Numbered from the stretch's first letter, positions 5,726 through 53,635 are shown. The stretch is DNA of 64,000 nucleotides from Azolla caroliniana (GCA_043228905.1 JBHGNT010000007.1:12400001-12464000); one strand, 5' to 3'. The notes: generated from the sequence alone by a model not told the origin. Numbers and translations are program-made.

Positions 5726-5831
5726 AGTTACGAGAGAGATTTGCTAGATTCGCTTGAATACGTTTAAGAGAAAAAGAAGAAGAAGAAATTGGAGAAGAAG
5801 AAAAGAATATTCAATTCAAACTATCAAGACT

Positions 5832-6022
5832 TGTGAGTAAGAGAGAGAGAAGACAAGAGATGGAAATGAGATTATATTATGAGGAAACAAGGTTACAAAG
5901 AGTAGGCTAAGGGCTAAATACTGGTGTTGAACCGAATGAGTTGTGATGAATGAATAGACACCTATTTATAGGTCCTTATGGAGTATTCTAGAATGTTCTA
6001 GAATATTTTAGATATTTATGAT
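5832..6022 (-). repeat. 5' LTR of A, inner part (R/U5 side)
   Basis: 5922-6022 matches 1-101; inner boundary TGTGAG at 5832 is inferred; TATA (CTATAAATAGG on minus) near 5961-5971. Confidence 0.8.
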
Positions 6023-7699
6023 TGTTGAGAATCAAGCTCAACTTGGTCTAGTGTGTGAACTCACCTTGAGAGTGAATAGAAACTCTGAAAAAGATTATGT
6101 GCGGAAGTAATAGAAAACCAAACACAGAAAATACGCAGGTTTAATGGAAAGCTTGAATATACACAGTACACGGGAGAGACAGAGAGAGAACACACAAAAA
6201 CCAAATTCAAAATTATACTCAATATGTACATACACCGTGCTCAGTGAGCACCTTTTATACAAGCCCTGACCATAGGGCTGACACAAGTACTGATAGTACT
6301 TGACCACTCATAAATGATCCTACTACACTAACTCCCAAAATTATTCCTTACGAGGAATATCATACTAACGACCTTCCGGTTTACACACCGATACGGCCAT
6401 GTTATGCGTACCGATTTACGCGCCCAGTCTACGCATCGTATTACGCACGAATGTTGAGCTTGTCTCTCAACACTCCCCCTCAAGCTCAACTTGAGGTTCC
6501 ACCTGCTCCGTCGGATCTACACTCTGGTTCCTTCTTGCTTGACACCTCGCTCGCGCTCCTCGACCCGTTTGATTCCGCGCGCCTCGACCCTTCCGGTCGG
6601 CTTGTCAGCTTACATGGCCCTTCTCAGCTTCCTTGTTGTTGCGGTGTTGGCGCCTCTTCTGCTGCCTTCTCTTCCGCTTGGCCCTTGGTTGATTCAATGT
6701 ATCTGAATCAAACATCTGAACCAACTCAGCTTCCTTCGATCGGTTTTCACTCTCGTCCGAGTTGGTTGTCTCCAACTCATCTTCGGTCTTCTCGCCCTTG
6801 ATGGCTTCGTCTCCCCCACGCTTGGTTGGCTTTGGCTCTTTATTTCGACTGCTCCCCTTATGTCCGCTTTTGGACTCTTCCGCGGATCCGCCCTCGGCTT
6901 CTTCAGCCGATCCGAAATCAAATTTGTCATCCGAGTCGGTGTCACGGTCTTCTCCGCTCCTTCCGTGCTCCCTTCCATGGTCATCATGGACGTCTCTCCC
7001 CCTCAAGTTCGGCACGTCGAGGTGACGTAACCCAAGCGCACCCGAGAATTGCCGCAACTTGTCCAGTTCAAGAGGCTTGGTGAAGATGTCGGCGTTCTGC
7101 CGATCCATCAAAACATACTGAAGTTCGACTTCACCGGAGAGGACACGCTCACGAACGAAATGGTAGTGCACGTCAATGTGCTTAGTCCGGGCGTGGAAGA
7201 CGGGGTTCTTAGCTAGCTGGATGCTGCTGAGGTTGTCGCAGTAGATTGTTGTTGGATCGGACACCTCCACCTGTAGATCTTTAAGTAGCCTCTTCAACCA
7301 TATGGCTTCGCATGTCGCGATAGCCGCTCCTCTATACTCGGCTTCGGTGCTCGACAATGCAATTGCCGGCTGCTTCTTGCTACTCCACGCGATCGCAACA
7401 CTCCCAAGAGAGAATGCGAAACCGGACGTGGATCGGCAATCGTCGGTGTTTCCAGCCCAATCAGCATCAGTGTAACCAACCAACTGCACTGCAGTATTGG
7501 TCCGATATAGTAGCCCCCGGTCCTTAGTGCCACTAATGTACCGGAGTATGCGTTGTGCACACTGAAGGTGCTCCTCGGTCAGTCGCGCCATGAACTGACT
7601 GATCACCCCGACCGGGTAGCTGAGATCTGGTCAGGTGATGGTCAAGTATATAAGGCTTCCGACTATCTGTCTGAACCTCGTCGGGTCGCATACCTTTCC

Positions 7700-10600: not shown

Positions 10601-13286
10601 TCACGGCTAACACGCGCTTGTTTGGTGTGAGGGTTATAACACTTATAACCCTTCTGCTCGTCCGAGTAACCGACCAAGATGTATTTCTCGGCGTTTGCGT
10701 CCAGCTTCCTCCTTTTCTCCTTCGGTACATGCACATACGCAATGCTACCGAACACCCTCAAGTGTCGCAAGTTCGGCTTCATTCCGAAATATAGCTCGTG
10801 CGCCGACACTTTGTCTCCGATCCGGTTCTGGATGTATACCGCGGTCCTTACCGCCTCGGCCCAATAGAACTTGGGCAAGCTCTTCTCCTCCAGCATTGCC
10901 CGTGCCGCTTCCACAACTGACCGATTCTTCCTCTCGGCCACGCCGTTCTGCTCCAGCGTGTATCTACAACTAAATTCGCGCCGAATTCCCATTTGTTGTA
11001 GATAACCGTTGAATTGACCGGAGAAGTACTCTTTCCCGCCATCTGACCGCAGGCACTTGATCTTTCGTCCCGTCTCCATTTCCATGAACCCTTTGAGGTC
11101 CTGAAAGCAGTCGAAGACTTCGCTCTTCCTCTCAATGAGGTAGATCCACGTGTGCCGCGTGTGGTCGTCGATGAAGGAGATGAAATATCGACTCCCGCCA
11201 AGACTAACGTTTTGTGTCGGCCCCCATACATCGGAGTGTATAAAGTCAAGCTTGTTCTGGCTCCGGTTTCGCTCGTTGGGGAAAGGAAGTCGGTGTTGTT
11301 TCCCGAGCTGGCAAGCTTCACAAATTTGTGCCTTTCGGCCACTAAATTTGGGCAATCCGAACACTACCTGTTTCGATTGCAGATCTTGAAGCCGTTGGTG
11401 GTTGACGTGGCCTATCCGCTTGTGCCACAAGTCGATGTCCGACTCGGATTTTTGTCCCTTCGCGAACATTGCGGTGCCGCCGTCAATGGAGTCGAGGATG
11501 AACATCCTCCTATCTCTGCGCCCTTGCGCAATCACACGGCCTTCTTACTCAATGAAGCACCCGAGGTGTGTAAACCGAACCTCCATCCCTTGGTCGACGA
11601 TCTGTCCGACCGAGACCAAGTTTTTCATGATTGTCGGAACGTGCAGCACGTTCATGAGTTTCCCTTTCTACCCGACATGGCTAAGGGGAACTTCTCCGAC
11701 ATTCGCGATCGGATGCGAAGTGTCGTCTCCTGTTGCGACTACTCCAGGTTGTATCGGTTTTTCAAGGTACAAGAACCACTCCTTATGGCTCGTCATGTGG
11801 TTTGACGCACCGGAGTCTACGTACCACACCTCGTCCGATCTCAGGGTGCTTTGTTTCATTGAGTTTGCTTTGTGTCTCGTCACGAAGGCAGACCCTTCTC
11901 CGGCTCTCCTGGAGTCTTCGGCGTAGTGCGATCGCTGCCGATTTCCCTTGTCGGTATGTCTGGAGCCGTTTCCGGAACCGGTTCTCTCCGAATCAACGCG
12001 CTTCTTCCAGCACTCACTTTCCCTGTGGCCTTTCTTGCCACAGTACCAGCACTCCGCGATGGCCTTCCCTTGCCGGTTCTCGTCGCTTCGATTCCCCCTG
12101 TTTCCAGAGGGTCCGGAGTTGCTGTCGGCATCACTTCGGTGCCTTCTTCCTTGATCTCGTCGGCCACCTCCATAGTGCGCCGACTCGCCTCGTCCTCCAC
12201 GTCCACGAGGCCTATCTCCCTCCATGTACAACATTCTGTTGTCGGTGTGTGTGCTTGTAGATGCACCCGCGTGGTTCTCCTCTACCAGGAGCATCGACTG
12301 TAAGTCGAAAAAGGACGGCGTATTCTCTCGAGTACACACAGCCGTTCGGAACGCTCCGAACTTCGACGCCAAACCTCCGAGACAGATCTGGACCATCTCG
12401 CTCTCCTTGATGTTCATCTCTATGGAGGCGAGGGAGTCGCAGATATCCTTGATCTTCGAGGTATAGTCCGCCACCGACAAGTCGCGTTGTCGTAGGTTGC
12501 TCAACTCCTGTCGGAGTTGAAGCTTCCTGGCTGTGATGCTTGCGGCGAAAATCTTCTTCACATTTTCCCACGCACCCTTCGGCGTCTTTGCATCCCGAAC
12601 ATAGCTCAATAGTTGTTCGCCCACACACGACGCGAAGCAGTATAATACCCTGCTCGCCGATTGGTCCCACGACGGAAAGTCTCTGTGTGTCGATTCGGGT
12701 GCCGCGTCATTAGCTCCTTCGACATAACTCCAGTAGTCGTGCCCGAGCAGGTACTGGTGCATCTTGTAGGACCAAGACACGTAGTTGGTTCTATCGAGCT
12801 TCTCTGTTGGAAGCGAGCTCGCCATGCCTCTATCCATCGTTCTTCTTGTTCTTCTTCATCAAGCTGTGTTGGCTGCAGACAGGTTCTCAACCCTCGCGCT
12901 CTGATACCATGTAAAAAGTAGCGTGCGGAAGCAAGTATGAAGACAGAACAGAAGGGAGAACACTAGGTTTAATGGAGAGCTTGAGCTTACGCAGTATACG
13001 CAAGAGAGACCGAGAGAGATAGAGAGAAGACACCAAAAAGAGAAAAAGATATATTAAAGACAAAAAACAATACATATATATGTGTTCAATGAACACTTTG
13101 TACAAGCCCTAGAAGGACTAATTGAAGTACTGACAGTACTTCAATGCTCATTAAGAGCTCCTACACTAACTCCCAAATATATTCCTCACGGAATATCTTT
13201 CCTAACGGCCTGACCGATCGGTCCCAGTCGATCCGGTCCTCGGCTTCTTCAGCCGATCCGGCCGATGTTGAGCTTGTCTCTCAACA
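7700..13286 (-). mobile_element. Element D: full-length young Ty1/copia (C-related) inserted in the RT of C
   Basis: TSD TTTCC at 7695-7699 and 13287-13291. LTRs 7700-8056 and 12910-13286 are nearly identical; PBS TGGTATCAGAGC adjacent to 12909; PPT 8057-8068. Confidence 0.97.
8051..12837 (-). pseudogene. gag-pol of D (gag/CCHC, PR, INT, RT, RH, long charged tail) with a few stops and frameshifts
   Basis: CWYCGKKGHRESEC, WYVDSGASNHM, HSDVWGP...QNGVAERKNR, LHQMDVKNAFL, LKKSLYGLKQAPRAW, YTDADWAG, TKHIEVHYHF. Confidence 0.93.
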
Positions 13287-16200
13287 TTTCCTGAATCGAG
13301 GGAAGCTTGACGGTTCTATCTAGAGGAGTCGAGACGGACTTACAGTCGGCCATCCCGAATTTGAAGAGCATATTCAACGCGTAATGACGTTGGCTGATCA
13401 ATATGCCTTCGGGGGTACGGATCATTTCGATCCCGAGGAAGTAATGAAGGTCCCCCAAATCCTTCATGTCGAATGATGCCGCAAGCTGAGCTTCACGCGG
13501 TCAATCTCACCTAGGTCGGCGCCAGTTATGACCAAGTCATCAACATAAAGTAAAATGCTAACCGGCCCGAGTCAACCTTTTTGGATGAACAGTGAGGAGT
13601 TCGATTTTGATGTCACAAAGCCCATCCGACGCAATCGTTGCATGATCTTCGCATTCCAGGCATGTGGGGCTTGCTTTAGTTCGTAAAGGGACTTCTTCAA
13701 TCGGCACACTGCCGAAGTGTTCGTTCCGGAGTGAAATCTGGGGGGTTGTACCACGTACACCTGTTCCTCAAGCTCACCTTGTAGGAACGCATTCTTTACA
13801 TACATCTGATGTAAGTGCCACCCTTTTGCCGCAGCGATCGCGAGCAAAACACGGACGGTCGTCATCTTCGCGATCGGCGCAAACGTCTCATCGTAGTGGA
13901 TGCCGTATTTCTACGCATAGCCTTTTGCTACTAACCGGGCCGTCAATGTTGTACTTGACCTTGTACACCCGCCTACATCTAATTGGCTTCACACCTTCCG
14001 GGGCGTCAACCAGGTCCCAGGTTTCATTCTCCGCTAATGCGCGCATCTCTTCCTCCATTGCGGCACGCCAATTCGCGTCCTTCGCCACTTCTGCGTAGCT
14101 ACCCGGTTCACGCACTTCCACTACACGGGTCATGTATGCATAGTGATGCACCATGTACTCATTGTATCCGAACCGCACAACAAGGATCTTCTGGCGGGTA
14201 GATCGGCGTAATTGCTCATTAGCCGATGTTGAGGTTATCTTAGCCGACGTGGACTTCGCTCTCGAAGACCCTTCATCACTTCCCTCGGAGTTGGACTCAC
14301 GTCGATTCGACTCATTCTTATCTGAGCCGTAATCCGACACCTTCTTCTTCCCTTTTTCCTTGCGCATAAGCCATCTCCTCGGCTTCCTGCGTGGGGAATG
14401 CACGACCGAGTCTCCACTACTCGTTGGCTCTTCATCGGACTGGTCAAACCGACTTAGTCGTTTATTCGGTCCGCTTAACCGAAACGAAATCAGACTCTCT
14501 TCGTGGGTCCTAATTTCAGGCTCATCCGGAGGCATCTCAGCCTCGCTGACCTCATCATCAAAACTCGGATTAGAGGTGAGGTCTGGAGTCGGAGGCAAGT
14601 ACCAGGACGCGGACTCGTCAAACACAATGTCGCGGCTCACACGCGCTTGTTTGGTGCGAGGGTTATAACACTTAGAACCCTTCTGCTCGTCCGAATAGTT
14701 GACCAAGATACACTTCTCAGCTTTCGCGTCCAACTTCCTCCATTTCTCCTTCGGCAAATGCACATACGCAATGCTACCGAAAACTCTCAAGTGTCACAGA
14801 TTTGGCTTCCTTCCGAAATACAACTCATGCGCCGACACTTTTTCTCCGATCCGATTCTGAATGTACACTGCAGTTCATACTGCCTCGGCCCAATAGAACT
14901 TGGGCAAGCTCTTCTCCTCCAGCATTGCCTATGCCGCTTCTACAATTGACCGGTCCTTCCTCTCACCCACGCCGTTTTGCTCCGGCGTGTATCTACAACT
15001 AAATTCGCGTCGAATTCCCATCTGTTGCAGATAGCCATTGAATTGACTGGAAAAGTACTCTTTTCCGCCATCCGACCGCAAGTTGACCTTTCATCCTGTT
15101 TCCGTTTCCACGAACCCTTTGAGGTCCCGGAAATTGTCGAAGACTTCACTCTTATTCTCGATGAGGTAGATCCACGTGTGCCACGTATAGTCGTCGATGA
15201 AGGAGACAAAATATCAACTCCCGCCAAGACTAACATTCTATGCCGGCCCCCATACATCGGAATATATCAAGTCGAGCTTGTTCCGGCTCCAGTGATGCTC
15301 GTTAGGGAAAGAAAGTCGGTGTTGCTTCCCTAGCTGGCAGGCTTCACAAATTCGTGCCTGCCAGCCACTAAATTTGGGCAATCCGAACACCACCTATTTC
15401 GATTGCAGGTCTTGAAGCCGTTGATGATTGACGTGGCCTATCCGCTTGTGCCATAAGTCGATATTCGACTCGACTTTTTGTCCTTTCATGAACATTGCGG
15501 TGCCACCATCACTAGAGTCGAGGATAAACATCCTCCCGTCTCTGCGCCCTTGCGCAATAACTCCGGTTGCGACTACTCCCAGTTGCATCGGTTTTTCCAG
15601 GTACGAGAACCACTCCTTGTGGCACGTCATGTGGTTTGATGTGCCGGAGTCGACGTACCATACCTCGTCCGACTTCGGGGTGATCTTCTTCATCGAGTTT
15701 GCTTCGTGTCTTGTCACGAAGACTAACCCTTTTCCAGCTTTTCCGGATCCTTCGGTGTAGTGCGATCACTATCGATTTCCTTTGTCGATCTGTCCGGAAC
15801 CTGACCTAGATCTGGTCCTCTCCAAATCGGTGTGCTTCTTCCAGCACTCGCTCTCCTTGTGGCCTTTTTTGCCACAGTACCAGCATTCTAGCACTCGTCG
15901 CCTCGACTCCCCTTGTTTCCAGAGGGTCCGGATTTGCTGTCGGCATCACTTTGGTGCCTTCTTCCTTGATCCCGTCGGCCGCCTCCATTGCGCACTGACT
16001 CGCCTCGTCCGTCACAACCACAGGGCCTATCTCCCTCCGTGTACAACATCTTGTTGTCAGCATGCGTGCTTGTCGATGCATTCACGTGGTTCTCCTCTAT
16101 AAGGAGCATCGACTGTAAGTTGAAAAACGACGGCGTATTCTCCCGTGTACACACAACAATTCGGAATTATTCCTTAAGAGGAATATCATACTAACGGCCT

Positions 16201-26658: not shown

Positions 26659-27140
26659 TGTTGAGAATCAAACTCAACTAGATTGTGAAAAAACTTTAAG
26701 TACAAATTGACAATCTTTACTTCGAGTGCTTTTAATCTCTTTAGTGTCTAATCGACGTTCGTATATTTTTCTTTATTCTTTGTGGGTTTTCACCTCACTT
26801 TGAGGTTTCCCACTAGTGATAAACGTGTTACTAAAAAAAAAGGAAAATGTTTAAGTACAGTTAAGTGTATGAACACACCACTATATAACAATAACTAATG
26901 TTTCATAGAATGTAACTTCTATGACACATAGTTATAGAGTTAGTTAGGGTTTCCCCGTTTTCTCGAGAAGACCGTTTTAGTGAGAGAGTATAGAGAGAGG
27001 GTGACCTTATAAACACCCGCTCTCTCTATGTAGTTATTGGTTGTCTTTCATCTTTTTTTGAGTATACAGTTTTTGTTTTTCTAACTTGTGTCTATCTTCT
27101 CTCTTCTCTTATACAAACACACATATCTAATCTACTTCCA
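26659..27140 (+). mobile_element. Diverged LTR related to the B/G copia family
   Basis: Starts TGTTGAGAATCAAACTCAAC; shares TCATAGAAT..CTATGACACATA and GAGAGAGGGTGAC..ATAAA.CACCC blocks with the B LTR. Right end is approximate. Confidence 0.6.
26705..26841 (+). mobile_element. 5'-truncated poly(A)-tailed LINE 3' end
   Basis: Ends in A9; imperfect TSD ending TTTAAGTACA (26695-26704 and 26850-26859); inverted homology to 53228-53367. Confidence 0.8.
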
Positions 27141-27427: not shown

Positions 27428-28539
27428 GTGCAACTGTTTATTTTCATCCTCTTGAATCCTGCACATAGTGCACACCCATATCTTGAATCATTGTTTTTGT
27501 TGTTTGCTAGACTCACTGACATGTCCTTAATCTCGCTTCCGCACCAATGACTTCCACAAGTGGTATTAGAGTGACTTGGAGTCTGACGACAATAACAACA
27601 TAAACCTGAGAAAAGAAGAATCAATTGAAGGAAAGGACCATGTCAGAAAAATCTTACTTCCCACAGAACATGGCTTCTACTTTCGGTACAAGAGTAGAAA
27701 TTCAAAAGTTCGATGGCAAAAACTTTGCCCCATGGAAGGAGATGATGTAGAATGTACTTATCATCCAACGTCAAACCAAGGCAATACGACACAACAACAA
27801 GCCAGCCTCGATGACAATAGACGAATGGTGCTCATTGGATGAAATAACCAAGTCGACCATTCGAATGCATCTAGCAAAAAATGTCTTCTTTAGCATGGCC
27901 AAAGAGACGACGCCATTTACCTTGTGGGAGAAGCTCCAGGCCGTTTATGAGAAGCAGTCCTCCTCATCAAAGCTAATATTGATCCTACAGTTGTGCAATA
28001 TAAAGATGAGAGAGACAGATCCAACGACCTCCCACATAAACACCTTCAACCAAAGTTGAATATGGACGAAACTATCGGACAAGTCCTCAATGAGGATATC
28101 CAACGAAAATCTATGGGCCTCACTATCAACAACTCGGCGGAAGCCCACTACTCGACCGAGCCAACCAGAAGAACCAATCGGTCGAGAAAGAAGGAGGAGT
28201 CAGGACCAACAACGATCGAAGATGAGAAATAGCCGACCAGGTGATTTCTGCACCCACTGAAAAAAAGATGGTCACAACATTTTCGACTGCCGGTTGATCA
28301 AGAGGAAGGAGAACGATCAATGACTCGAGTAGAACTCAGGACGATCTGACTCGAACCAGTCTCTAGTCGGCAACCAAATCAATGTTGTCAACTCCCGATC
28401 AGGAGAAATCATCTCTTTAGAGGACTCGGTGATATGAGAAGTCCTCTATAGTGTGCAAGACGCACGAACATAGCTATTAGACTCCGGAGCCACATTTCAC
28501 GTAACCCCCAACATCGACAAGAGCTCACGAACATTGCCT
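27383..28539 (+). mobile_element. Element J: degenerate copia 5' portion ((CT)n, LTR end 27558, PBS 27561, gag, start of PR)
   Basis: ...CCACA AG TGGTATTAGAG; gag KFDGKNF..W and KSTIRMHLAKNVFF; LLDSGATFHVTP near 28472-28510. Confidence 0.75.
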
Positions 28540-31500
28540 AGTTGGACAGAGGAATGGGAAGCTCACTTCCGACTGAAAAGCTTGACGGAAGCTGTCGAAT
28601 ACAAGTGTATAATGGTCGTATTCACACTGTCCCTTTGGACATCCCAAGTTTGGGCTATTTCTGTAAATAGCATAAAGGGCAGTTGCCCTAGGATAGTCAC
28701 TATATAAAGTGACTTTGTAACCTTTAGTGGAAGTTGGTTGTCATTTTGTAACTGTTGCTATTAAGAAATAAAATGTTTCTTTGTGCCTCTCTCTCTCTCT
28801 CTCTCCCTCTCTCTGTGTATCTTGTTCATTCTCATACACAGGTCCTTCAACGTCACAGATGTTGTTTGTTCTTCCGCACTAACGACCTTGTCCCCAACAT
28901 TTGGTATCAGAGCGTTGGAGGTTCTTCAACCTGCTGCCAGCCGTCTTAGTACACCACACAACATTTTGTTTTTGTTTTTCTTGAAGAATAGAGAAGAGAG
29001 AAGAAAAACAAGAAGTCTACATCTCTCTGTGTTAAATCACTAATTGGAGTAAGCTAGCCGAATGTACTTTGTTCCTGTGATTGTAACCACTTGAGATTGG
29101 TCTCTAGGCAACAACCAAATTCGTGCTTCATTCGGCTGATCGACATTCGGAAGGATCTGTTGGATCCGTCCCTCTCATCGTTGTAGTCATCTGAAGCAGA
29201 ATCAGCCTAAACAATCGGTTTCTTGTGATCAATATTCGGCATACAATCGGAAGCTAACCGGAGTCACTCCAAGAAGGTTCAACAAACAAGTATCCGAAAC
29301 CAAACCGACTCGGGTTCAAGACCGACTAGAACGATATCGGGTGAGCCGATTGGCTGCACCCTGCTAAGGTTCCTAGTCAACTCCGAACAAAGTCTTACCA
29401 ACCGAAATCGAATCAGATAGCATCAACATATGGCTCATCGGAGATGAGTTTAAGGAGGTTCGACAGTTCGAACTTCAACTTTCGGAAGTAACAAATGCAG
29501 GACTATCTCATAGTCAAGGGTCAAATAGACCCGATTGAGAATGAAAATCCTCAAGAAGCATACAAGGAAAATGAGTGGCTAAAGCTAGACAGAATCATCT
29601 ATGCCACGATTTGGATGCACTTGTTGGAGTCAGTGTACTTCACAGTGCAATCATGCTCGACAACTTTTGAACTTTGGAAAACATTGTTGGAAACTTATGA
29701 AAAGAAGGTCGCCGCAGTGAAGATGTATTTGATCTGACGCCTCTACAACTTGCGGATGAAAGAATCTGATTCGGTTCAGGCACACCTCAACGTGTACGAA
29801 AGCCTAAGCTCCCAAATATTGTCTCAGGGGAAGACAATAGAGGATGAACTCAGAGGAATGATACTCATGAGGTAGTCTCCCCTCTTCTTGGGAAACTTTC
29901 GTCACAACTGTGTGCAATGCTTCAATAACTGCCATCAAGTACTCCGAAATCATGAGCACAATCTTGACTGAAGCAGCTCGGAGAAAGTCTTTCGCTAAAG
30001 ACTCGGCAGATGAAGTTTACATAGTATAAGGTTCGACTGACCGATCAAACAATCGGGGAAGAAGTTCTTCCCAACCGTCGAACAATCAGCGAAGCCGGAG
30101 CAAGTCCCGAGACAACCGATTTTGCAACTACTGCAAGAAACCGGGACACATCAAAGCCGACTGCCGGGCACTCAAAGAAAAAACCGACAAAGCTCAAAGA
30201 GCGGATCAGAAGAGTAGCCGGCATGAGGAGGTCAACTACGTCGGCTCTTTAGCCGAAATTTTGACGACCGACCCGAACATACTATCCATAGAGAACCTAG
30301 TCGAATCAGAAGTTCTACTTAAAACTGAGGAATCGAGCACATGGCTCCTGGACTCGGGCATGTTTAAGCTTCATCTGCCGAGTCTTTAGCGAAAGACTTT
30401 CTCAAAGCTGCTTCAGTCAAGATTGCGCTCGTGATTTTGGAGTACTTAATGGCAGTTGTTGAAGCATTGCACACGGTTGTGACGAAAGTTTCCCAAGAAG
30501 AGGGGAGACTACTCATGAGTATCATTCCTCTGAGTTCATCCTCTATTGCCATCCCTTGAGACAATATTTTGGAGCTTAGGCTTTCGTACTCATTGAGGTG
30601 TGCCTGAACCGAATCATATTCTTTCATCCGCAAGTTGTAGAGGCGCCGGATCAGATACATCTTCGTTGCGGCGACCTTCTTTTCATAAGTTTTCGACAAT
30701 GTTTTCCAAAGTTCAAACATTGTCGAGCATGATTGCACTGTGAAGTACACTGACTCCAACAAGTGCATCCGAATCGTGGCACAGACGATTCTGTCCAGCT
30801 TTAGCCACTCGTTTGCCTTGTGTGCTTCTTGAGGATTTTCATTCTCAATCAGGTCTATTTGACCCTTGACTATGAGATAGTCCTGCATTTGTTCATTCTA
30901 GAAGTTGAAGTTCGAACCGTCGAACCTCCTTAGACTCATCTTCGATGAGCCGGATGTTGATGCTATCTGATTCGGTTTTGGTTGGTAAGACTTTGTTCGG
31001 AGTTGACTAGGAACCTTAGTGGGGCGCAGCCGGTCGGCTCACCCGATATCGTTCTAGTCGGTCTTGAACTCGAGTCGGTTTGGTTTTGGATACTTGTTTG
31101 CTGAACCTTCTTGGAGTGACTCCGGTTAGCTTCCGATTGTATGCCGAATATTGATCACAAGAAACCGATTGTTTAGGCCGATTCTGCTTCAGATGACTAC
31201 AACGATGAGAGGGACGGATCCAACTGATCCTCCCGAATGTCGATTAGCCGAATGAAGCACGAATTTGGTTGTTGCCTGGAGACCAATCTCAAGTGGTTAC
31301 AATCACAGGAACAAAGTACATTCGGCTAGCTTACTCCAATTAGTGATTTAACACATAGAGATGCAGACTTCTTGTTTGTCTTCTCTCTTCTCGGTTCTTC
31401 AAGAAAAACAGAAACAAAATGTTGTGTGGTGTACTAAGACGGTTGACAGCAGGTTGAAGAACCTCCAACGCTTTGATACCAAATGTTGGGGACAAGGTCG

Positions 31501-32410
31501 TTAGTGCGGAAGAACAAACAACATCTGTGACGTTGAAGGACCTGTGTATGAGAATGAACAAGATACACAGAGAGAGGGAGAGAGAGAGAGAGATAGGCAC
31601 AAAGAAACGTTTTATTTCTTAATAGCAACAATTATAAAATGACAACCAACTTCCACTAAAGGTTACAAAGTCACTTGATATAGTGACTATCCTAGGGCAA
31701 CTACCCTTTATGCTATTTACAGAAATAGCCCAAACTTGGGCTGTCCAAAGGGACAGTGTGAATACGGCCATTATACACTCGTATTCGACATCTTCTGTCA
31801 AGCTTTTCAGTCGGAAGTGAGCTTCGCATTCCTCTGTCCGACAAGTGAACTATTCTACAAGAGCTAGCAGCACAGTCCTACTAGGCAATGGGCAGGAGTG
31901 CGCAATCGTAGGGATCAGAGAGGTCCCCATCCAATTTCCGAATGGCAATACTATCACCTTGCACCGAGTGTGGCATATACCCAATCTCAGAAGGAGTCTG
32001 GTCTCCATTGGCATGTTAGCCGAAGACGGGTACTGAACGACTCTCAATGAGTCGTCATGGACAATCAACGGCGGAAACATGTAAATTTGGAGCGAATGAA
32101 GGCAAACCAACTTGTATCCACTAATGGTGATCAGTCCAGAAGGGGTCGTGAACGTAGCCGAATCGCGAGACTCAAACCTATGGCATAACCGACTTGCCAT
32201 ATGTCACAAGCCAGACAAGGATGTTTCCAATTCGGAAAAGCCCAAATACAAAGCTCGGCTCATCGCAAAGGAATTCAAACAAGAACAAGGGGTCGATTAC
32301 GATGAGATGTTATCACCAGTAATCAAGATGACCACCGTCCGACTTCTACTTGTGGCGAGTGAAGACCTAGAGCTCGAGCAGCTGGACGTCAAGACAACGT
32401 TCCTACACGG
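28540..32410 (+). mobile_element. Element K: internally deleted, 3'-truncated copia
   Basis: LTR 28540-28899, PBS TGGTATCAGAGC 28902-28913, gag MQDYLIVKG, CCHC, WLLDSG at ~30340-30361. PR resumes at 31844, then jumps from LWHNRL to RT ([20 protein letters not shown]). Confidence 0.85.
30362..31843 (-). mobile_element. Inverted partial copy of the K family (5' LTR 31484-31843, PBS, leader, 5' gag) inside the K protease
   Basis: Reverse complement aligns to 28540-~30016 with scattered substitutions; ORF 30364-30888 is homologous to 29495-29737. Confidence 0.92.
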
Positions 32411-44184: not shown

Positions 44185-47100
44185 AATTATGTCGCGAAGA
44201 TTCGCGTGTGCGTGTGCTACTTGAGCAACCACCGGGGTCTTGGACTAGGAGGACGTTCGCGGAATTATCGAAGAAATGACGATCAATGTAATATTGGATG
44301 AAATTTGTTCACTTGAGAAGAAGAAAGATTGTACACTTGAGAAGTAGAAAAATATGAAGAAGATAAAGATGAATATAATTATATTGATGATAATGGTGTT
44401 GGTGATATCACATATTGAGCCCCCCTTTACACAAGCTCCACTAGGGTTTTTATAACTCTCTTCATGCACAAACCCATGGGTTTAGAATCACGGTTTTGGG
44501 GACACGGTTTTGCTTATGACATGCACAATCCATGGGTTTAGAACCATGGTTTTGTGCACATGGTTTTCTATGGTTGTTTTGTCTATAATTTGTATATGAA
44601 AAGGAAATATATAAAATTTACACAATATGATAGTTGTCCTAGTGGTAAGGCAAACATCTTGTATCTTAGAGGTGCAAGGTTCAACCCTTGCTTGCACCTC
44701 TCTGTATGAACTCAAGTGCCACTAAGCCTTAGGCTTATTTGCTAAGTGCATGTGCAATGTTGCACATCCTTGGTTTATTCGTCTCACTTGGTTTCACACC
44801 GTAGCCAAAAATTGTCACGACAACGCCGACCATCAATACCACGCCAGCAACAAAGTCCTCATCTATTTCCCCATCTGTCATCGTGGCCTGAGTGAGTCGC
44901 TCATGCACCTATGGATCGGTCCCTTCGAAGTTCAAAAGAAGATATGCAACACTACATACTGCTCTGCCACGCCTCCAACAACAGCTCTACCTTCACCCAC
45001 CAGTCTCGCATGAAGCCCTTCCATCAGCTACCACTGCCCACGTCCACGCTCACGCCCACGCTCGTGCCATCCCTCCCCCCAGAACTGCAGTCCATGCCCC
45101 GCCACAATCCGACCGCACCTATGGTATTACCACGAATCCTAACCAAGGCCCCACCTATACAGGGTCACATTGACCACACCCAAAATAGGTCCCTACCAAG
45201 CCCCCATAATTAGAAGGGCTAATTGCTAAGAGTAGCCTATAAGATGCACTAAGAGTAGCCTATAAGATGTAACTTAGAATGTAATGGAAAGGGAGCTATT
45301 TTGAGAGCATTTCACAATATGTACCACAATTGCACTCCTATTTACTTACTACATATTCACCGTAACTTTGAGGAGGCACGAGATATTCTACTTACTACGT
45401 TTGTGTTATCATATGTTTACAAGTATGTATGCATGTCATGTATGTATGTACCTCTCTCTAGCTCTAGCTGGCAAACTTTGTAACGTGCTTCTTAACAATA
45501 TATTTGTATATATATATATATAGATAGGTTCACACGAGGCTATATATATTTGTATGTATGCATGTAATAGATTGATGCACACAAATTTACATCTTAAGAA
45601 ATACAAAATTTCCGTTTACTCTCTCGACCACCCTCAAGGTGCATCCATCATCATTGGAACCATCCATGGCCTTCAAAGAAGGGAGGTACATAACTATCGA
45701 TTAGGGAAAACGGTTGTACAAACATGTAGGTTTGGGAATAATATGTAAATGGAGAAATATAACTCAATTGAGTAGCTAACCTCTTTCTTTCGTGGAGTAA
45801 ACGTACAAACTAACAATTCTTTTCTGCAAAGGAGAAATAGATAGATCTACGATGTTGGGGACACGATAAATAGTGAAATTGCCCATCATATACATAGCCT
45901 CAAGCCATTTCTACACTTAGTTCAAAATGAAAAAAGTTGGTACTAATTGTAAGCCTTGTTACACTCAAAATTCAGTAAGGCATATTAGAGTTAATCATAA
46001 TATCAATATATACATACTAAGTTCCACAATTGATTAGACAATGAAATAACTGTAACCCCACCCCTATTGTAATCAATTTCACCTAAAGGAAAATTAGAGT
46101 TGATCATATTATTAATACACATACTAAGTCACACAATTTACCCAAGATTAGACAATGAGATTTTGTGTATGCTATGATAAGTATCATATTAATTACAAAT
46201 AGTTATCAAGGCTGAAACTAAAAAACAATATTAAATTATGAAATGAAAAGAAGAACATTTACCATATATAAGAATTGTAGGAGCAGATTTGAACGTATTG
46301 GCCAACGATGAGAGTTGAACTAGAATGGTTTGATGATATTTAACCTCCCTAATTAAGTATAGCCACTAGTTTTATGCCTGCTCGCTATTAAACTATGATG
46401 TGTGCCCATCACTTTGTTACCATGAATATTTGCCACTTGCCTATCAAACAAAATTCCATAGTAATTATCATGCAAAATGTTATGGTGATTACCATGAGTA
46501 CAATGGTCAAATTATTAACTAAGGTAATTTTATATTAATTATAACAATTGGCTAAATTGCATGGCATGCGCCAAGTGACATGTGCCATTTTTATGATTAT
46601 GACATCATTTTCGTCTAATGATGTCATAATCATTAGAGAGAACACCCTTCCTCTTCACACCCTTGCTAAGTTGTTGTATCTTTGGGTCTGGATTCACCTT
46701 GATTTGCTCCTGCACAGTCGGATCGGCAAGCATTTTGTTTGTGGGTCTTGCCCTTGAGTTGCAACATTTGCCTTACACCAAAGACTCTCTAGCTTCCTGC
46801 TTGTTAATACCTCTCTTGTCAAGATGAGCCCAACACTATCAGTTGCTACATCCACCTGCAAAATTAGACCAAATGTGCCGCATGCTTCATCCACTTGATT
46901 AACTAAACTAGTTGTGTCGGTTTCTATATCTACTCTCAAAATGGGCCCCTCAAAACATGTAGCAAAATCAAAAGTTTCCATACTAATGTCAGCCATTATC
47001 ACAAGTGATTCATACCCTTTAGTCTTTGCAATTCAACAAAAACGAGCATAATCACACTCACAAAGCAACAAAAATCTTACAAAACAACTACAATATAATA

Positions 47101-47286
47101 AAACAACATTCCTTGACCAACACAATATATTTCCTAAATATTTTTCATAAATATCCATTACATGAAAGGGATTAAGTATAAACCAAGAATGGTTTTACAT
47201 GTACAAACAAAACTTATACATTAATCTCCGAAAGAAAAATCAGCTACATATCTAATCCATTAAAATGACAATCTAGCCCCTTGACC

Positions 47287-47404
47287 GAGTAATTGGGCTT
47301 TCCCCATGTAAAAAGATTCGTGTGCGGAAGCGTGTGCGATAGACACCGACCGAGTACACAGTTGATTGTTCGGAACTCAACAGTTAGGTAAACATAGAGA
47401 ATAG

Positions 47405-47409
<5 letters not shown>
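47287..47409 (+). repeat. Left copy of the ~123-bp duplication flanking the LINE
   Basis: GAGTAATTGGGC...AATAGATACA repeated at 53067-53190 (about 5 substitutions and 1 indel). Confidence 0.92.
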
Positions 47410-47484
<75 letters not shown>

Positions 47485-47690
47485 GCAAAGTTCGGAGATG
47501 TTGGAGAAGGACAAACACTAATTTTGATGTATCTTCTTGCTACAATGTCTGTTTCCTTTGTTCTTTAGCTCGTTTCGAAGCCTGCTCATAGAGCTTTCTA
47601 AAGAGTATCTGCACGTATCATTTTGTGGTCTTGGTAGAACGTTACGAGTAAAAAATCCATTCGATTGCATGCATCTCATGATCGCTTGCT

Positions 47691-49079
47691 TTGATTCCTT
47701 CTGCAACACAATTACTTGTAAGTGAGCTCTCTCCTATTTCTTGTCATATGGATGGTAGTGTTTTCATGAATATGGATGAGTCTCTAAATTCTTCAAAGGA
47801 TGCATGCATTGTTGAGTCAGTATCAAGACCAAGAGGGGATGGTAAAAGAAAACGATGTATTGGAGATAATAACAATGACATGTCTTATGCTAATGCAAGG
47901 CGACAAGATGATATTGAGAAAGACGATAGTCATTGGGAACATTTAAGATGCATGGAAAATATATTAATGGAAGATTGTATAAGGGAGAGTGTGAAAGTTG
48001 CTGAGGAGTTTGTTGATGATGAAGTGGTTAAGGTAGAAATAGACAATAAGGAGTTTTTGGACTCATTTGCTAATTTTTGTGATAAAGGGGTCATATTGTT
48101 TTTCACGAGAAAGATACAGTTACGTGGGATTTTACAAGCTGATTGTGTTCAGGATGTTTATGTCGGTCCTCGTGGATTTTATGAGGTTGTTTTGGTATCA
48201 CAAGAGTATAAAGAGAAATTACTTAATAAATTGCCAGTGTTTTATGAGAAAAGTTTGGTTCATATTGTTCCGTGGAGACCACTAGTGGAATACCAAAATA
48301 TATTAGAGCAAGAGTGTTCCGTATGGGTTGAGGTAGAGTGCACATATTCAGTAGTTTGGCCAATATTACGGTCAGCGATGGAAAAGTTGGGAAAGATCTT
48401 GGTGCCTCCTAGTGCTAATGCTCAAAATCAATATCAGATGTGTATTCTTTGGAATACTGCTATAAAGAGGCCAAGTTGTTTACAGATTGCATGCTCTGGT
48501 ATGTTGCCTATGTATTTTTGGCTTAAATGGGGTACATTTGCAGGACATTGTTTCCATTGTGGTGTGTTGGGGCATTTTATGGCTGAGTGTCCTCAAAAAA
48601 GAAATAATTTAGTGGAAGTGGTACATGAAGAGCCTACAACTCATTATCAAATTCAAGTTTTGACAATTTCAAAGCAAACAAAGGAACCACAAATTGTGAA
48701 TGAGAAGGATGGAAAGACTCTAGAGGATGAAGGACAATGGTCAATAGTTTCCGGAAAGATGAAGAAGTCTAATAAAAATGTTGGGCATAATGTATCTATG
48801 GAGAAGGTCACACCGACACATCCCATGCGGAATAAACCATGGGCTCGTCAAGAGGACTATCCAAAGAAATTATCTTTTGATAATAAAGGTAATTTGTATG
48901 TTCCTTGGAATAAACGGAAATCGGTGCCTCGTTCACATGAGGAGCCATCGGGGTCTGGAGTTTTGCATTCCCATAGTAATTCATATGCAATCTTAGGGGA
49001 TTTATTTTCGGATATGGCAGAAACATTAGCAGTGAAGGAGAAGGAGATTTCTCGAATAGAAGGAAAAAATAAAGTATGA
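47691..49079 (+). CDS. LINE ORF1 (DUF4283-like region plus CCHC zinc knuckle), open frame; true start uncertain
   Basis: 462-aa ORF with GFYEV..F, PW..., VWVEV, LGKIL and CFHCGVLGHFMAECP. Confidence 0.8.
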   Translation: MIPSATQLLVSELSPISCHMDGSVFMNMDESLNSSKDACIVESVSRPRGDGKRKRCIGDNNNDMSYANARRQDDIEKDDSHWEHLRCMENILMEDCIRESVKVAEEFVDDEVVKVEIDNKEFLDSFANFCDKGVILFFTRKIQLRGILQADCVQDVYVGPRGFYEVVLVSQEYKEKLLNKLPVFYEKSLVHIVPWRPLVEYQNILEQECSVWVEVECTYSVVWPILRSAMEKLGKILVPPSANAQNQYQMCILWNTAIKRPSCLQIACSGMLPMYFWLKWGTFAGHCFHCGVLGHFMAECPQKRNNLVEVVHEEPTTHYQIQVLTISKQTKEPQIVNEKDGKTLEDEGQWSIVSGKMKKSNKNVGHNVSMEKVTPTHPMRNKPWARQEDYPKKLSFDNKGNLYVPWNKRKSVPRSHEEPSGSGVLHSHSNSYAILGDLFSDMAETLAVKEKEISRIEGKNKV

Positions 49080-52000
49080 AGATCACCATATGGAATGTGA
49101 GGGGATTGTGTTCTAGATTTAGAATGCATGATGTTTGGAGAATTGTGTTAAGTGAGCAATGGGATGTTTTATGTGCAGTAGAGCATAAAGATCATCGTAA
49201 TGTTGGTTTAATTAGTTATTCTAAGGGTTATACATTATGTTATGCTGGCAAGGTTCATGGGGATTATTCAGGGATTGTCATGTTTATAAGAGATAAATTT
49301 CACCCAAAAGTAATTGTTTCTGATGAATTTGGAAGATTTATTGTGGTAGAGATATGTTATGAAGGGCAAGATCTTTGGTCAGTTGGTGTGTATGCATCAA
49401 ATGTTTCACAAGCATGAAAGTTGTTATGGAGATCTCTAAACTCAGTGCTTGATAATGGTAGAACGGGTTTATTGATGGGAGATTTTAATGTTTGTTGTGA
49501 GACAGATCAATCAACATCTATCCACTCTATTATGGATGGACCAGAGGTTCAAGAATGAGGAGATTTTGAGACTGAAGTCATGTTAAGGGATGTATGGAAA
49601 TGGATCAAGGGAGATGAACCTAGTTATACATTTCAATCGACTTACTTGGAGTAGGTTGGATCAAATGTATGTAATGCATGCCAAAGGTTTTTTACCAGAG
49701 ATTTTGGATATTTTAGTGTTTTATAGGTCAATTATATCAGATAATTTCCCATTAATTTTTGAGTTCAATCACCACTCAATTAAAGGTTTTCATGAGTTTC
49801 TAGGAAAACCACTGTTGATTTTTAATTCATCATTTTTGGATCATGAGGTCTTCCATGCCTATATGTGTCAATTGATTGATGCATTTGCCTATCATGTTCA
49901 ATTTGATGGGTATGAAGCGTGGGAAATATTTGTTGCAAATGTTCAAAGGTTAACTAGATATTATGGAATTCACCATGCTTTTAAAAGGAGAAAGAAATTA
50001 AGTCTCCTAGTTAATTTTCTTGATAAATGCAACTCATTGTTAATTTATTGGCCAATGGATGTAGAGTTGATGGGATATCAAGAGGTATTAATTTCTGCGA
50101 TGCATGACCTAACGACAAAAAATTATCAACATGCTAGACTACATCTTCTCAGACAAGAAGTGAATGATGCTAATTGTCAATCACATAAGTTTTTTCATGA
50201 CCTTCATGAATCACATGCACGACATAATGTGGTAAGGTTAGAGGAAAATGGTATCATGTGTTCTGATCCTCAAGAAATTGTGAAGAAATGCATAGAATAT
50301 TATACACAATTGTTGGATGTACAAGTGTGTATCGACGATAATGTTAAAAAGGATAGAGATGTATTTTTTAATGGAGTGAAAAATCATGTATCGCATGATG
50401 TGGCACAATCATTAGATGCTAATATTTCAGAGGATGAGGTGGAACATGTCATGTCACATCTTGGTAATGATAAGAGTCCTGGGTGGAATGGATTAACACA
50501 TGAACTCTTTAAATATGTGATTAAGTTAAAGGGGCCTTTTACGGTTTTATTTTAGAAGGTGTGAGGGAAATGCCTCATTCTTGGAAGATTGGTTTGATCA
50601 AGCTTTTGCCGAAGGTGCCTTCTCCATCTTCCTTTGCTCAATGGAGGCCTATTTCATTGATAGGGGGAATGTACAAAAATTTTGCAAAAGTGATGGCCAA
50701 TATGTTGCATAAAGTTTTACCTTCTATTATTCATGATGCTCAATATGGGTTTTTAGCAAAAAGAGACATTTTACATAATATTTTAAATGTTCAAATGGCA
50801 ATTAACTATGTAAAGGAGTCTAAACAAGAATTAGGGTTGCTACAATTGGATATCGAGAAAGCTTATGATAATGTGGATTGGTCATTTATAAATCAATTGA
50901 TGTCTCAAATGGGTTTTGGTGATCGTATGTATAAGTTCATATACACATTAGGGGAGGGTTCGGTTTCACATGTGATGTTTAATGGAGGAGTAACACAACC
51001 GATTTCTATTCAGAGGTCAATTAGACAAGGATGCCCGATAAGTCCTTTACTATTCACTATTGTGACACATCCTATTCTTGTTAAGTTACACAATATGGCT
51101 ATGGAGGAAGAATTGTTTGGATTAAGGTTGCCTTCAGGGAAGCCATGTATTGTTCAAGCTCTCGCAGATGACCATATTATGTTTTTGGCACCTAATCGGG
51201 AAATATTAGTAAGACAAGAGATGTGTGGGTATTGTTTTCAAATGCTTCAGGGTTGAGAATTAATATACATAAATTTGTTCTCATTTCATGTACAGAACAA
51301 GATGTGTTAGGGTTGGGGTGGCCAGGAAGGATAGTACATCATGGTATGATTTGTCGTCATCTTGGATATCCAATTGGGGTGGAAGTTTCTCATGTGAAAC
51401 TTATTGAGTGGGTATCCAAAAGGTTGGAGGATAAGTTTATGTATTGGAGGTCTCCATTTTGGCCTTTTCATGTACGACTTAAGGTGGTCCAATCAATTAT
51501 GGTCTCTATGGTATCGTATTATCTTCCTTTGCTCCCATGGTCAAAGAAATCTCTTGAAATGTTATCACACTCGATGCGAATGTTGTTATGGAAAAGAAAA
51601 GGGAAAAGTGCCTTGTCATGGTTGGCATGGGATCATGTTTGTACTCTGAAGTGTCTTGGTGGGGCATCAATATTGAATCTATATGAGCATATAGTGTGGC
51701 TCGTCGATTTACTTTCATTCGATTCATGTTTGAAGTTGTACAACCTTGGACAGAAATGATGGCATACTTTATAGAGAAGAACGGAATAAAGCTTGGAAAC
51801 ATGAAGGTTGAAGCGAATTGGTGGAATGTAATTAAATCTGACAGGGATGTCAAATGTACAGGGTCTATGATAGTTAATCATTTGTTGACATTTTGGCAAA
51901 GTATGTTGGATTTTGTGGAATGGCATCCCCCACAAGAAAGGGGATGTGCCAATTCATTACAAATGGAGGTTTTGGCAACATCAAGGTTGTTGAGGTGGGA

Positions 52001-52850
52001 AGGTAAACAAATTCTTAACCTTCAATTTAATCAGATGGCTAGATTGGGTTTGGTAACAGTTAAGGATACTATGTTGGTTTCACAAAGAAGTTTAATGGAT
52101 TTTCGAACAATAAGATCAACATTTCGTATTCCAAAAGGTTATAACATTATTTGGGATAAGTTGCAACAAATACTATCTTCGCATGAGCCAATTCCTGACT
52201 TAGATGGGTGATCTCAAGAGCTTGATTGGAGGTTTGTTGGAAATAAGAGATTGACTATGATCTCAACTAATGTTGCTTATCACAAGTTGATTGACAAACA
52301 TACTTGTGATTGAAAGAAAGGGTTATAAAGATATGGGGTTTTCATAAGCCCATTACTTGGTGGTTTCATGTGATCAAGGTAGGTTGGTGTTCTCGATTGA
52401 TGCTACGAGCCAAGGTATTTATTTGGAGAGTTATGGTTGGAGCTTTACCATTAGGGGACACATTAAAAAAAAGAAACATTACTAAAGGATTATGTTTCTT
52501 TTGTTTGATGGAATTGGAACATATAGGCATCGATTTATTTCATGCCTGATGGCAAGGATGGTTTGGAGGTGTATCCATTTAGTGTGGATGTCTCTAACAG
52601 AAGTCTATCTTCCTTCAGTTGGGTTTTTGCACATATGGAGAACAATGAACTGATGCCTCATTTTCAAATTATTTTTGAGTTATTGAGGTATTGGGGGCTA
52701 TGGTTCAATTGGAATATGCGGAATTCCTTAATTTTTTATTCGCAAGTTGGGGTGAGAAAATATGTTCTAAAGTTAAAAGGACTTCTTTTGTGGCAATTGA
52801 CAGTGCTAGAGAAGTCACGAAATCTCAACCAAGAAGAGAGAGAACTCTGA
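49076..52850 (+). pseudogene. LINE ORF2 (APE endonuclease, RT, zf-RVT-like), broken by stops and frameshifts
   Basis: MKITIWNVRGL, GDFN, WSRLD, SDNFP, KSPG.NG, WRPISL, LDIEKAYD, IRQGCPISPLLF, ALADD, RHLGYPIG, CFFC..E, WNMRN. Start overlaps the ORF1 stop. Confidence 0.92.
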
Positions 52851-53009
52851 AAGGTCACATATCATCATACTTCACATTTGAATTGGTGTGTAGGGTGGCA
52901 TTGAGTTTGGTGTCATAGTATTCTTTAGATCCTTTGATAGAAGGGTTCTATGCTTTGTAGTAAGTTAGTCATGGCCGTGTTTTTTTCTTTCGTAATGAAA
53001 GCCATTATT

Positions 53010-53066
<57 letters not shown>

Positions 53067-53071
<5 letters not shown>

Positions 53072-53190
53072 ATTGGGCTTTCCCCTTGTAAAAAGATTCG
53101 TGTGCGGAAACGTGTGCGATAGACACCGAACCGAGTACACAGTCGATTGTTCGGAACTCGTCAGTTAGGTAAACATAGAGAATAGATACA
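53067..53190 (+). repeat. Right copy of the ~123-bp duplication flanking the LINE
   Basis: Matches 47287-47409. Confidence 0.92.
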
Positions 53191-53227
53191 TATTGAGAGA
53201 GACAAAAAGAGTAGACAACAACTTACA

Positions 53228-53635
53228 TTTTTTTTTTTGTAACACTTTTATTACTAGTGAGAAACCTCCAAGTGAGGTGAAAACCCACAAAGAATAAAGA
53301 AAAATATACAAGTGTCGATTAGACACTAAAGAGCTTAAAAGCACTCAAAGTAAAGATTGTAAATTTGCAGTGTGATGTCTCTAAGTTGCAGACAATAAAA
53401 AATAGAGTTTGCTTGAGGGATTGCTTAAAGAAGCTAACTTCATGAAGTTGGGTTCAATCAAAGACCTTATATTGCGGGCTGTCCAAATGGTCCAGAGTGC
53501 CCAAAATCGTGTCCATTGGAGAAAATAGGCATTGTTGGATAGGGTGCATGGAATTTGTCCAAATATCCAAAAGTGTTTACCAAACCTTCGGCCAGGAAAT
53601 CTATGATAAAGAGATGCACTTAGTCTTTGTATAAA
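53228..53635 (-). mobile_element. 5'-truncated poly(A)-tailed LINE (second family), 3' end of ORF2 plus UTR
   Basis: T11 at 53228-53238 with AATAAA just upstream on minus; minus-strand translation includes FWALWTIWTARN (LINE ORF2 C-terminal W.IW..RN motif); homologous to 26705-26841. Confidence 0.8.

What the first reader, a model, noticed from the sequence alone, without database searches (positions are those of the whole stretch)
47287..53190. Full-length L1-type LINE with (GA)n at both ends and a ~123-bp target-site duplication
Seen: the layout is [X 123 bp][(GA)37][5'UTR-ORF1-ORF2-3'UTR][(GA)28][X 124 bp]. The X copies are ~95% identical and there is no poly(A). The GA runs lie inside the duplication, so they travelled with the insert and were not a pre-existing target microsatellite. 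The 3' GA run merges with the GAG that opens X, suggesting tail-target annealing. Established: L1 elements normally make short (~7-20 bp) TSDs and end in poly(A); microsatellite-specific LINEs (Tx1-clade Kibi/Koshi) insert into repeats; >100-bp TSDs are known from rare cases such as rotifer R9. Inference: a plant LINE family with a GA tail, a 5' GA tract (GAGA-type promoter or template-jump product) and second-strand nicking ~120 bp away. This could be an undescribed integration mode. A second LINE family in this window shows the ordinary poly(A) and short TSD, as an internal control.
Basis: partly seen in the sequence, partly recalled or inferred. Interest (0 to 1): 0.85.

Follow-up and report, generated by a model that had tools for sequence, protein, structure and literature searches.

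The report
Fern retrotransposon homing to GA repeats
This is a decayed copy of a multi-copy L1-type jumping gene, likely from a fern, whose relatives mostly sit next to GA repeats, so the family likely targets GA-rich DNA (a habit known from fish retrotransposons), while the 123-base duplication around this copy is real but likely a one-off rather than a family rule.

Summary
The layout is real: X copies at 47287-47409 and 53067-53190 (95.2%), (GA)37 and (GA)28, ORF1 intact, ORF2 broken. X is 20 bp of flank plus the 3' end of a Copia LTR. Related LINEs (clade with Adiantum) have a GA run of 10 nt or more at 13 of 16 full-length 5' ends and 12 of 22 3' ends, far above background. Others end in A-runs, so 'no poly(A)' is not a family trait. 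Three of four 3' junctions with a paralogous host sequence map onto a native GA tract, one onto the LTR tract where this copy's 5' junction lies. GA is therefore largely a target, Kibi-like. Some GA is likely RNA-borne: 0 of 12 truncated junctions have a long GA run, and two long tracts are absent from paralogues. X-X divergence (5 substitutions, 6.8 expected) fits duplication at insertion. No relative showed a long duplication within one contig; one cross-contig pair is suggestive; short-read contigs are chimeric, so this stays untested. Long TSDs are known (human L1, R9, Dualen). The empty site was not seen. Earlier scan notes shown to me held no such finding. Verdict: new variant of a known kind.

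The parts
47287..47409 (+). X, 5' copy of the duplication: 20 bp of low-copy flank (47287-47306) plus 103 bp of the 3' end of a Copia-type LTR lying on the minus strand (47307-47409)
   Evidence: depth 5,000-14,000 over much of the LTR part versus about 50-60 per single contig; paralogues continue into a reverse-complement PBS before 47304
47410..47483 (+). (GA)37 at the 5' junction, at the position of the LTR's own purine-rich tract; likely part target, part RNA-borne or expanded
   Evidence: family comparison
47484..47747 (+). 5' UTR; begins at the same place as in the family member L018 (97% identical)
47748..49079 (+). ORF1, 443 aa, open, CCHC zinc knuckle; relatives P0125 and P0126 carry PF14111 (DUF4283, name recalled)
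49076..52890 (+). ORF2 (APE endonuclease, RT with QALADD motif, C-terminal zinc-binding region), broken by several stops and frameshifts; end coordinate approximate
52891..53012 (+). 3' UTR ending in the clade-conserved TTTAC
   Evidence: (89% to L008)
53013..53069 (+). (GA)28G at the 3' junction, no poly(A); last GAG shared with X
53067..53190 (+). X, 3' copy of the duplication (124 bp)
53191..53227 (+). Continuation of the host LTR: TATT(GA)4 and purine-rich tract, the kind of site at which relative L002 has its 3' junction

Best explanation
This is a decayed full-length copy of a multi-copy L1-type LINE family, likely of a fern, whose relatives mostly abut GA-rich tracts, so the family likely targets host (GA)n and purine-rich tracts, and the 123-bp repeat is likely an occasional long target-site duplication made at this one insertion. 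Shown: anatomy, multi-copy family with 5' truncation, strand-specific GA adjacency, three 3' junctions on native GA tracts, and an age of X that matches the element. Inferred mechanism: the APE endonuclease nicks the pyrimidine strand of purine-rich tracts, often those in LTR ends. The freed TC/T-rich end primes on the RNA's purine 3' end, which is poly(A) or GA read through from the source locus. Full-length RNA likely starts inside the upstream GA tract, so the cDNA ends in (TC)n and joins the target at a GA-rich tract. Normally both junctions fall in one tract and the TSD is hidden in the repeat. Here priming used a CTC end 123 bp upstream while the 5' join used the LTR's GA-rich tract, which duplicated the DNA between. 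The same product would arise if the nick was at the tract and the primer first copied 123 nt of target before switching to the RNA; sequence cannot separate the two.
For: GA run of 10 nt or more at 13 of 16 distinct full-length 5' flanks (chance 0.118 per 1100 nt, P 3e-10). Homology between close family members stops at or in the GA tract (W/L018, L002/L003/L004/L006, L024/L025). 3' ends: GA of 10 nt or more in 12 of 22 (background 0.4% per 40 nt) and purine content of 75% or more in 18 of 22. No TC run over 3 nt at the 13 GA-bearing full-length 5' junctions. Native GA tract at the junction in paralogues for L002, L003 and L011 3' ends. Short GA or purine-rich flank at 6 of 12 truncated junctions (6 of 8 after dropping four; background 5%). 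Window copy has 31 private substitutions in 1121 columns, predicting 6.8 X-X substitutions; 5 seen. Depth rises from about 1-10 thousand over the 5' third to about 64 thousand at the 3' end in run X1. Precedent for occasional TSDs over 100 bp: up to 10% of human L1 events in HeLa (PMC5223499, passages). Precedent for RNA-borne target sequence annealing: R2 5' junctions (PMC3774820, passages) and SART1 priming (PMC7265360, passages).
Against: The empty site was not seen, so the TSD is not proven, and the age test is loose (X-X 4.1%, 95% CI 1.3-9.5%). The 3' junction of this copy is not at a GA tract, unlike three relatives. The paralogue of L029's 3' flank shows (GATG/GATA)n, not long GA, and 0 of 12 truncated junctions have long GA, which a pure target model does not predict. 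Three full-length 5' regions lack long GA (L009, L010, L029), and 2 of 8 clean truncated junctions show no purine tract (L022; L015 has TC instead). Relatives are short-read contigs of multi-copy families and can be chimeric (L004 and L005 share a 5' flank but differ at 3'). Accumulation by selection rather than enzymatic targeting is not excluded. No endonuclease assay exists.
Confidence: 0.55

Rival explanations
1. Long duplications are a regular family mode. The RNA carries GA at both ends, GA:TC pairing uncouples the 5' join from the first nick, and copies often have TSDs of tens to hundreds of bases.
For: Long GA at 13 of 16 full-length versus 0 of 12 truncated 5' junctions (Fisher P 1.5e-5). 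L011's 5' flank ends at its GA run and matches (86%) the flank that starts right after L029's 3' GA run, and neither long GA is in the other copy: the same layout as this window at about 330 bp. Several relatives have a constant short linker, TTTACG-AA(A)-(GA)n, which looks inherited.
Against: L011 and L029 are different subfamilies (77%) from different assemblies. Two separate insertions in one host repeat give the same picture, and two other flank pairs also shared host repeats. None of 15 contigs tested showed a long duplication. Three 3' junctions sit directly on native GA tracts. The excess of GA at 5' over 3' ends is not significant (13/16 vs 12/22, P 0.17).
Confidence: 0.2
2. A tandem duplication of X plus its GA-rich tract (GAG microhomology) arose first, and the LINE then inserted in the ordinary Kibi-like way into the first GA tract, losing TATT; X is not a TSD.
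For: The 5' junction lies in the family's preferred kind of site and the 3' junction does not. GA on both sides is what in-tract insertion gives. The age interval allows a somewhat older duplication.
Against: It needs two rare events at one site at about the same time, plus a 4-bp loss. X-X divergence is not larger than expected for the insertion age (5 vs 6.8). X starts and ends exactly at the element's junctions.
Confidence: 0.2
3. The duplication is an assembly artefact at the GA runs.
For: No contig bridging the 3' GA-X junction was examined. One locus-specific contig reads C at 47306, where the window has A and T in the two copies.
Against: The copies differ at 6 places. The flank-X junction is covered by near-identical contigs in two independent runs (X1 47153-47345, X3 47239-47345). 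At 47379 the 3' copy has the LTR family's common base and the 5' copy a rarer one, as expected of two aged copies.
Confidence: 0.05

Closest known systems
Kibi and Koshi (Tx1 clade, teleost fish; (TC)n and (TTC)n targets), seen through passages of PMC4494074 and PMC3812793; the original 2004 paper not read
   Same: APE-type LINE found at a GA/TC dinucleotide microsatellite, with repeat on both sides.
   Different: Host is a plant; RT groups with Adiantum and Riccia elements in a quick tree. Preference looks relaxed (A-rich and degenerate purine tracts also used). No Kibi sequence was available to compare, and the strand of Kibi's target was not checked.
Plant L1-clade LINEs (e.g. Celine, PMC11288735 passages; overview PMC3747384 passages)
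   Same: Two ORFs, CCHC ORF1, EN-RT-zinc ORF2, 5' truncation, A-runs at some 3' ends. Celine also shows a weak purine-rich bias (AAGA/AATA).
   Different: Celine has poly(A) and 10-30 bp TSDs, and almost all flowering-plant L1s end in poly(A). Here 12 of 22 3' ends and 13 of 16 5' ends carry long GA, and the clade lies outside the angiosperm group in the quick tree.
Long TSD cases: human L1 (PMC5223499 passages), rotifer R9 126 bp and Chlamydomonas Dualen median 900 bp (PMC9977147 passages; R9 paper seen only as cited)
   Same: Duplicated target DNA over 100 bp on both sides of a LINE.
   Different: R9 is rDNA-specific with a 126-bp TSD, and Dualen has two endonucleases. This element shows only an APE domain, and one instance only, which fits the occasional human L1 pattern best.
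R2 with upstream 28S sequence in its RNA (PMC3774820 passages) and SART1Bm (PMC7265360 passages)
   Same: Proposed annealing of RNA- or cDNA-borne target sequence to the target at the 5' join or at priming.
   Different: Different clades and targets; here the shared sequence is a dispersed microsatellite, and the annealing is inferred only.

Membership tests
L1 superfamily / plant L1 clade | ORF1 with CCHC knuckle upstream of ORF2 | tested here: met
   PF00098 above cut-off in ORF1; PF14111 in relatives P0125 and P0126
L1 superfamily / plant L1 clade | ORF2 with N-terminal APE endonuclease, RT and C-terminal zinc-binding region | tested here: met
   RT E 2e-25, EN weak in the broken copy; intact relative P0002 matches human L1 ORF2p at E 7e-62 and L1 EN at E 5e-11; PF13966 in P0001 and P0002
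L1 superfamily / plant L1 clade | Many 5'-truncated copies | tested here: met
   Depth gradient 5' to 3' in 4 of 4 runs; truncated junctions in loci
L1 superfamily / plant L1 clade | Poly(A) tail | tested here: inconclusive
   Absent in this copy; longest A-run in the first 14 nt is 1-10 among 22 relatives
L1 superfamily / plant L1 clade | Short TSD (about 5-30 bp) | tested here: not met
   123 bp in this copy; not measurable in relatives
L1 superfamily / plant L1 clade | RT groups with the flowering-plant L1 lineages | tested here: inconclusive
   Quick tree only: clade with Adiantum (100), sister to Riccia (95), outside the angiosperm group (99); midpoint root, no curated references
Tx1 clade, Kibi | Insertion at (TC)n/(GA)n microsatellites | tested here: met
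   13 of 16 5' ends, 12 of 22 3' ends, native tract at 3 of 4 junctions with a paralogue; works like Kibi
Tx1 clade, Kibi | RT groups with Tx1/Kibi elements | tested here: inconclusive
   No Kibi or Tx1L sequence in hand; the clade is apart from the group holding a frog element and marine contigs. Not filed as a member.
R9 / Dualen long-TSD elements | Restriction-like endonuclease (domain make-up of R9 recalled; Dualen from PMC9977147) | tested here: not met
   Only APE, RT and zinc-binding families on the clade's proteins
R9 / Dualen long-TSD elements | Long TSD in most copies | not testable with these tools
   No genome held; relatives are chimeric short-read contigs

The most novel reading that the evidence does not exclude
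A fern LINE clade carries (GA)n at both ends of its RNA and uses GA:TC pairing both to prime and to capture the second strand at the nearest GA-rich tract, so TSD length is set by the distance to that tract and regularly reaches hundreds of bases: a microsatellite-guided integration mode that duplicates host DNA.
Probability: 0.2. Interest if true: 0.78.

Novelty: new variant of a known kind. Interest (0 to 1): 0.5.

Why it matters
The passages I read place microsatellite-targeting APE-type LINEs in animals (Tx1 and R1 clades; PMC3812793, PMC4640811). My searches turned up no plant LINE targeting GA repeats, though Repbase and subscription papers could not be searched. A diverse clade, likely of ferns, with this habit would be an independent origin of microsatellite targeting. 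It offers intact natural ORF2 proteins (P0002, P0004) for testing how an L1-type endonuclease shifts from T-tracts to TC-tracts. It also appears to use LTR ends as safe landing sites. If GA pairing sets the 5' join, the open question of how L1-type elements choose the second nick becomes readable from TSD lengths in one genome.

Tried and rejected
No whole genome is held, so the genome-wide table of copies could not be made. Rfam: 0 hits at gathering score in the window and 4 chance-level hits near the element; X is not a known RNA. Scans of viral and prokaryote contigs found no relative. Sequencing runs: only contigs, no RNA holder listed. Laying contigs on the element body did not print the termini among the loose ends shown. 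Laying on flank plus 5' X showed no empty allele and no bridging of the 3' junction; only 32 of 331 pieces were shown. The idea that X is a terminal repeat of the element was rejected: no hit of X in 79 loci, and family members L018 and L008 have other flanks. Long duplications within single contigs: none in 15 tested (several have short or missing flanks). Four of the 12 'truncated' junctions were dropped for the clean count: L014 (flank is an LTR end, likely a later insertion), L038, L065 and L079 (old or fragmentary); both counts are given. An earlier 13-of-14 count left out L009 and L029; the report uses 13 of 16. The careful tree did not finish; the quick tree is used, on 80 rows chosen from about 130 proteins and 79 loci. 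No TSD was found for the poly(A) fragment at 53229. Earlier scan notes: nothing by sequence or words; by place, 8 of 34 notes shown, none on this family as far as the shown text goes. PMC9804982 and PMC12477314 (passages) held no plant microsatellite-targeting LINE; the latter mentions microsatellites as general landing pads. No supplementary files were read.

Full report
Observation. Two copies of X lie at 47287-47409 and 53067-53190, 95.2% identical with 5 substitutions and one indel; 0 of 300 random flank pairs reached that score. Perfect GA runs lie inside them (37.5 and 28.5 units). Between them are a 5' UTR, an open 443-aa ORF1 with a CCHC knuckle, a broken ORF2 with endonuclease and RT, and a short 3' UTR ending in TTTAC with no poly(A). 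The copy is full-length but dead.

What X is. From 47307 X is the reverse complement of the 3' end of a Copia-type LTR. It resembles the LTR end next to a primer-binding site at 12909. Depth over much of it is 5,000-14,000 against 50-60 for a single contig, and paralogues run into a PBS just left of it. The first 20 bp are low-copy flank. The 3' copy continues into TATT(GA)4 within a 78% purine stretch. X has no match in 79 related loci, so it is host DNA, not part of the element. The flank-X junction is covered by near-identical contigs in two independent runs.

The family. The nearest named relatives are from the fern Adiantum nelumboides (56% RT). A quick tree puts the window RT in a clade with them (100), sister to Riccia elements (95) and outside the angiosperm group (careful search unfinished, no curated Tx1 references). 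The host is therefore likely a fern, which agrees with unchecked scan notes on this genome. Contig depth in 4 of 4 runs rises several-fold from 5' to 3': a multi-copy family with many 5'-truncated copies. A metagenome scan gave 79 loci, of which about 35 top hits belong to this clade; L018 (95.8%), L008 (93.2%) and L022 (93.5%) are the window's own family.

Ends of relatives. At full-length 5' ends, 13 of 16 distinct flanks have a GA run of 10 nt or more (misses L009, L010, L029; chance 0.118, P 3e-10). Homology between close family members stops at the tract, and the tracts differ in length and interruptions. At 3' ends a conserved TTTAC-like motif is followed by A-runs of 1-10 and long GA in 12 of 22; 18 of 22 are at least 75% purine; ten end in A-rich sequence without long GA. 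At the 13 GA-bearing 5' junctions there is no TC run over 3 nt, so the bias is strand-specific. Where a paralogue of the host flank was at hand, three of four 3' junctions fall on a native GA tract (L002, L003, L011); the fourth (L029) falls on a GATG/GATA tract. L002's junction maps, by a loose alignment through the 12909 LTR, to within about 10 nt of X's right end.

Evidence that some GA travels with the RNA. Long GA occurs at 0 of 12 truncated 5' junctions (0 of 8 after dropping four doubtful ones), against 13 of 16 full-length ones (P 1.5e-5 and 2e-4). Short GA or purine-rich flanks do occur at 6 of the 12 (background 5%). The long GA at L011's 5' junction and at L029's 3' junction is absent from the paralogous host sequence. 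The simplest reading is that transcripts start in and read through into the flanking GA tracts of their source locus, as proposed for R2 and SART1 (PMC3774820, PMC7265360; passages read). This step is inferred. The excess of GA at 5' over 3' ends is not significant (P 0.17).

The duplication. The window copy carries 31 private substitutions in 1121 columns (2.8%). A duplication of the same age should show 6.8 substitutions between X copies; 5 are seen. This fits a TSD and argues against an artefact, but the interval is wide and does not exclude a slightly older tandem duplication. X starts and ends exactly at the junctions, with GAG microhomology at the 3' side. TSDs over 100 bp are known: up to 10% of human L1 events in HeLa cells and most events in repair-deficient cells (PMC5223499, passages), 126 bp in R9 and a median of 900 bp in Dualen (PMC9977147, passages). 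None of 15 contigs tested showed a long duplication, but such contigs join flanks of different copies (L004/L005), so this is weak. One cross-contig pair (L011 5' flank, L029 3' flank, 86%, about 330 bp) repeats the window's layout. The two belong to different subfamilies (77%), and two insertions in one host repeat would look the same. The empty site was not seen, and no genome was available.

Mechanism and odds. Best (0.55): a GA-tract-preferring L1-type family; first nick on the pyrimidine strand, priming on poly(A) or read-through GA, 5' join at a GA-rich tract; here the two junctions fell 123 bp apart once. Rivals: long TSDs as a regular GA-guided mode (0.2), a prior tandem duplication followed by ordinary in-tract insertion (0.2), artefact (0.05). 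The predicted target-contacting hairpin of the endonuclease is one residue longer than in human L1 and conserved in the clade (the role of this loop is recalled, not tested).

Comparison and novelty. It works like Kibi (PMC4494074, PMC3812793; passages), but membership of Tx1 was not shown. It has L1 anatomy without the usual tail and TSD in this copy. Searches listed no plant LINE that targets GA repeats; I read passages of twelve papers, no whole text and no supplements, and Repbase could not be searched, so prior description there is possible. Verdict: new variant of a known kind, interest 0.5. The interesting part is the clade-wide GA association; the 123-bp duplication is real but not shown to be a new integration mode.

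Noticed in passing
window 51160-51180 and P0001-P0011: The RT catalytic motif reads QALADD in the clade proteins where the motif was located, instead of the usual Y/F-ADD (usual form recalled); the Adiantum relatives keep AFADD.
   Followed up: partly
L015:1-38: A 5'-truncated relative is preceded by a (TC)n run on the sense strand, the reverse complement of the usual GA; the contig starts there, so inversion or chimerism cannot be told apart.
   Followed up: no
L025:950-1163; L022:1420-1823: Elements of the clade sit in or next to each other: L025 follows the 3' end and GA tract of a related element, and L022 lies just after an internal piece of a related LINE.
   Followed up: partly
window 26703-26841 (+) and 53229-53367 (-): Two 139-bp copies (92%) of a poly(A)-ended element; the first has a 12/14 flanking repeat, the second none found; no coding part in the window.
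   Followed up: partly
window 47306 / 53086: The base next to the LTR end is A in the 5' copy, T in the 3' copy and C in a locus-specific contig of run X1: a polymorphism or an assembly error.
   Followed up: no
window 28538-31845: Long inverted repeat, arms 1334 nt at 95%, 640 nt apart, around an LTR-retrotransposon gag-like fragment; it holds the native GA tract that matches L003's target.
   Followed up: no
window 46900-47305: The left flank is itself a low-copy repeat, with a few 85-90% paralogues in all four runs laid.
   Followed up: no
L011:39-313 and L029:5753-6080: Flanks of two different subfamilies match at 86% in the same layout as the window's duplication; possible second long TSD or two insertions in one repeat.
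   Followed up: partly
window 6300-16200: Nested or tandem Copia fragments on the minus strand with repeated RNase H and LTR pieces.
   Followed up: no
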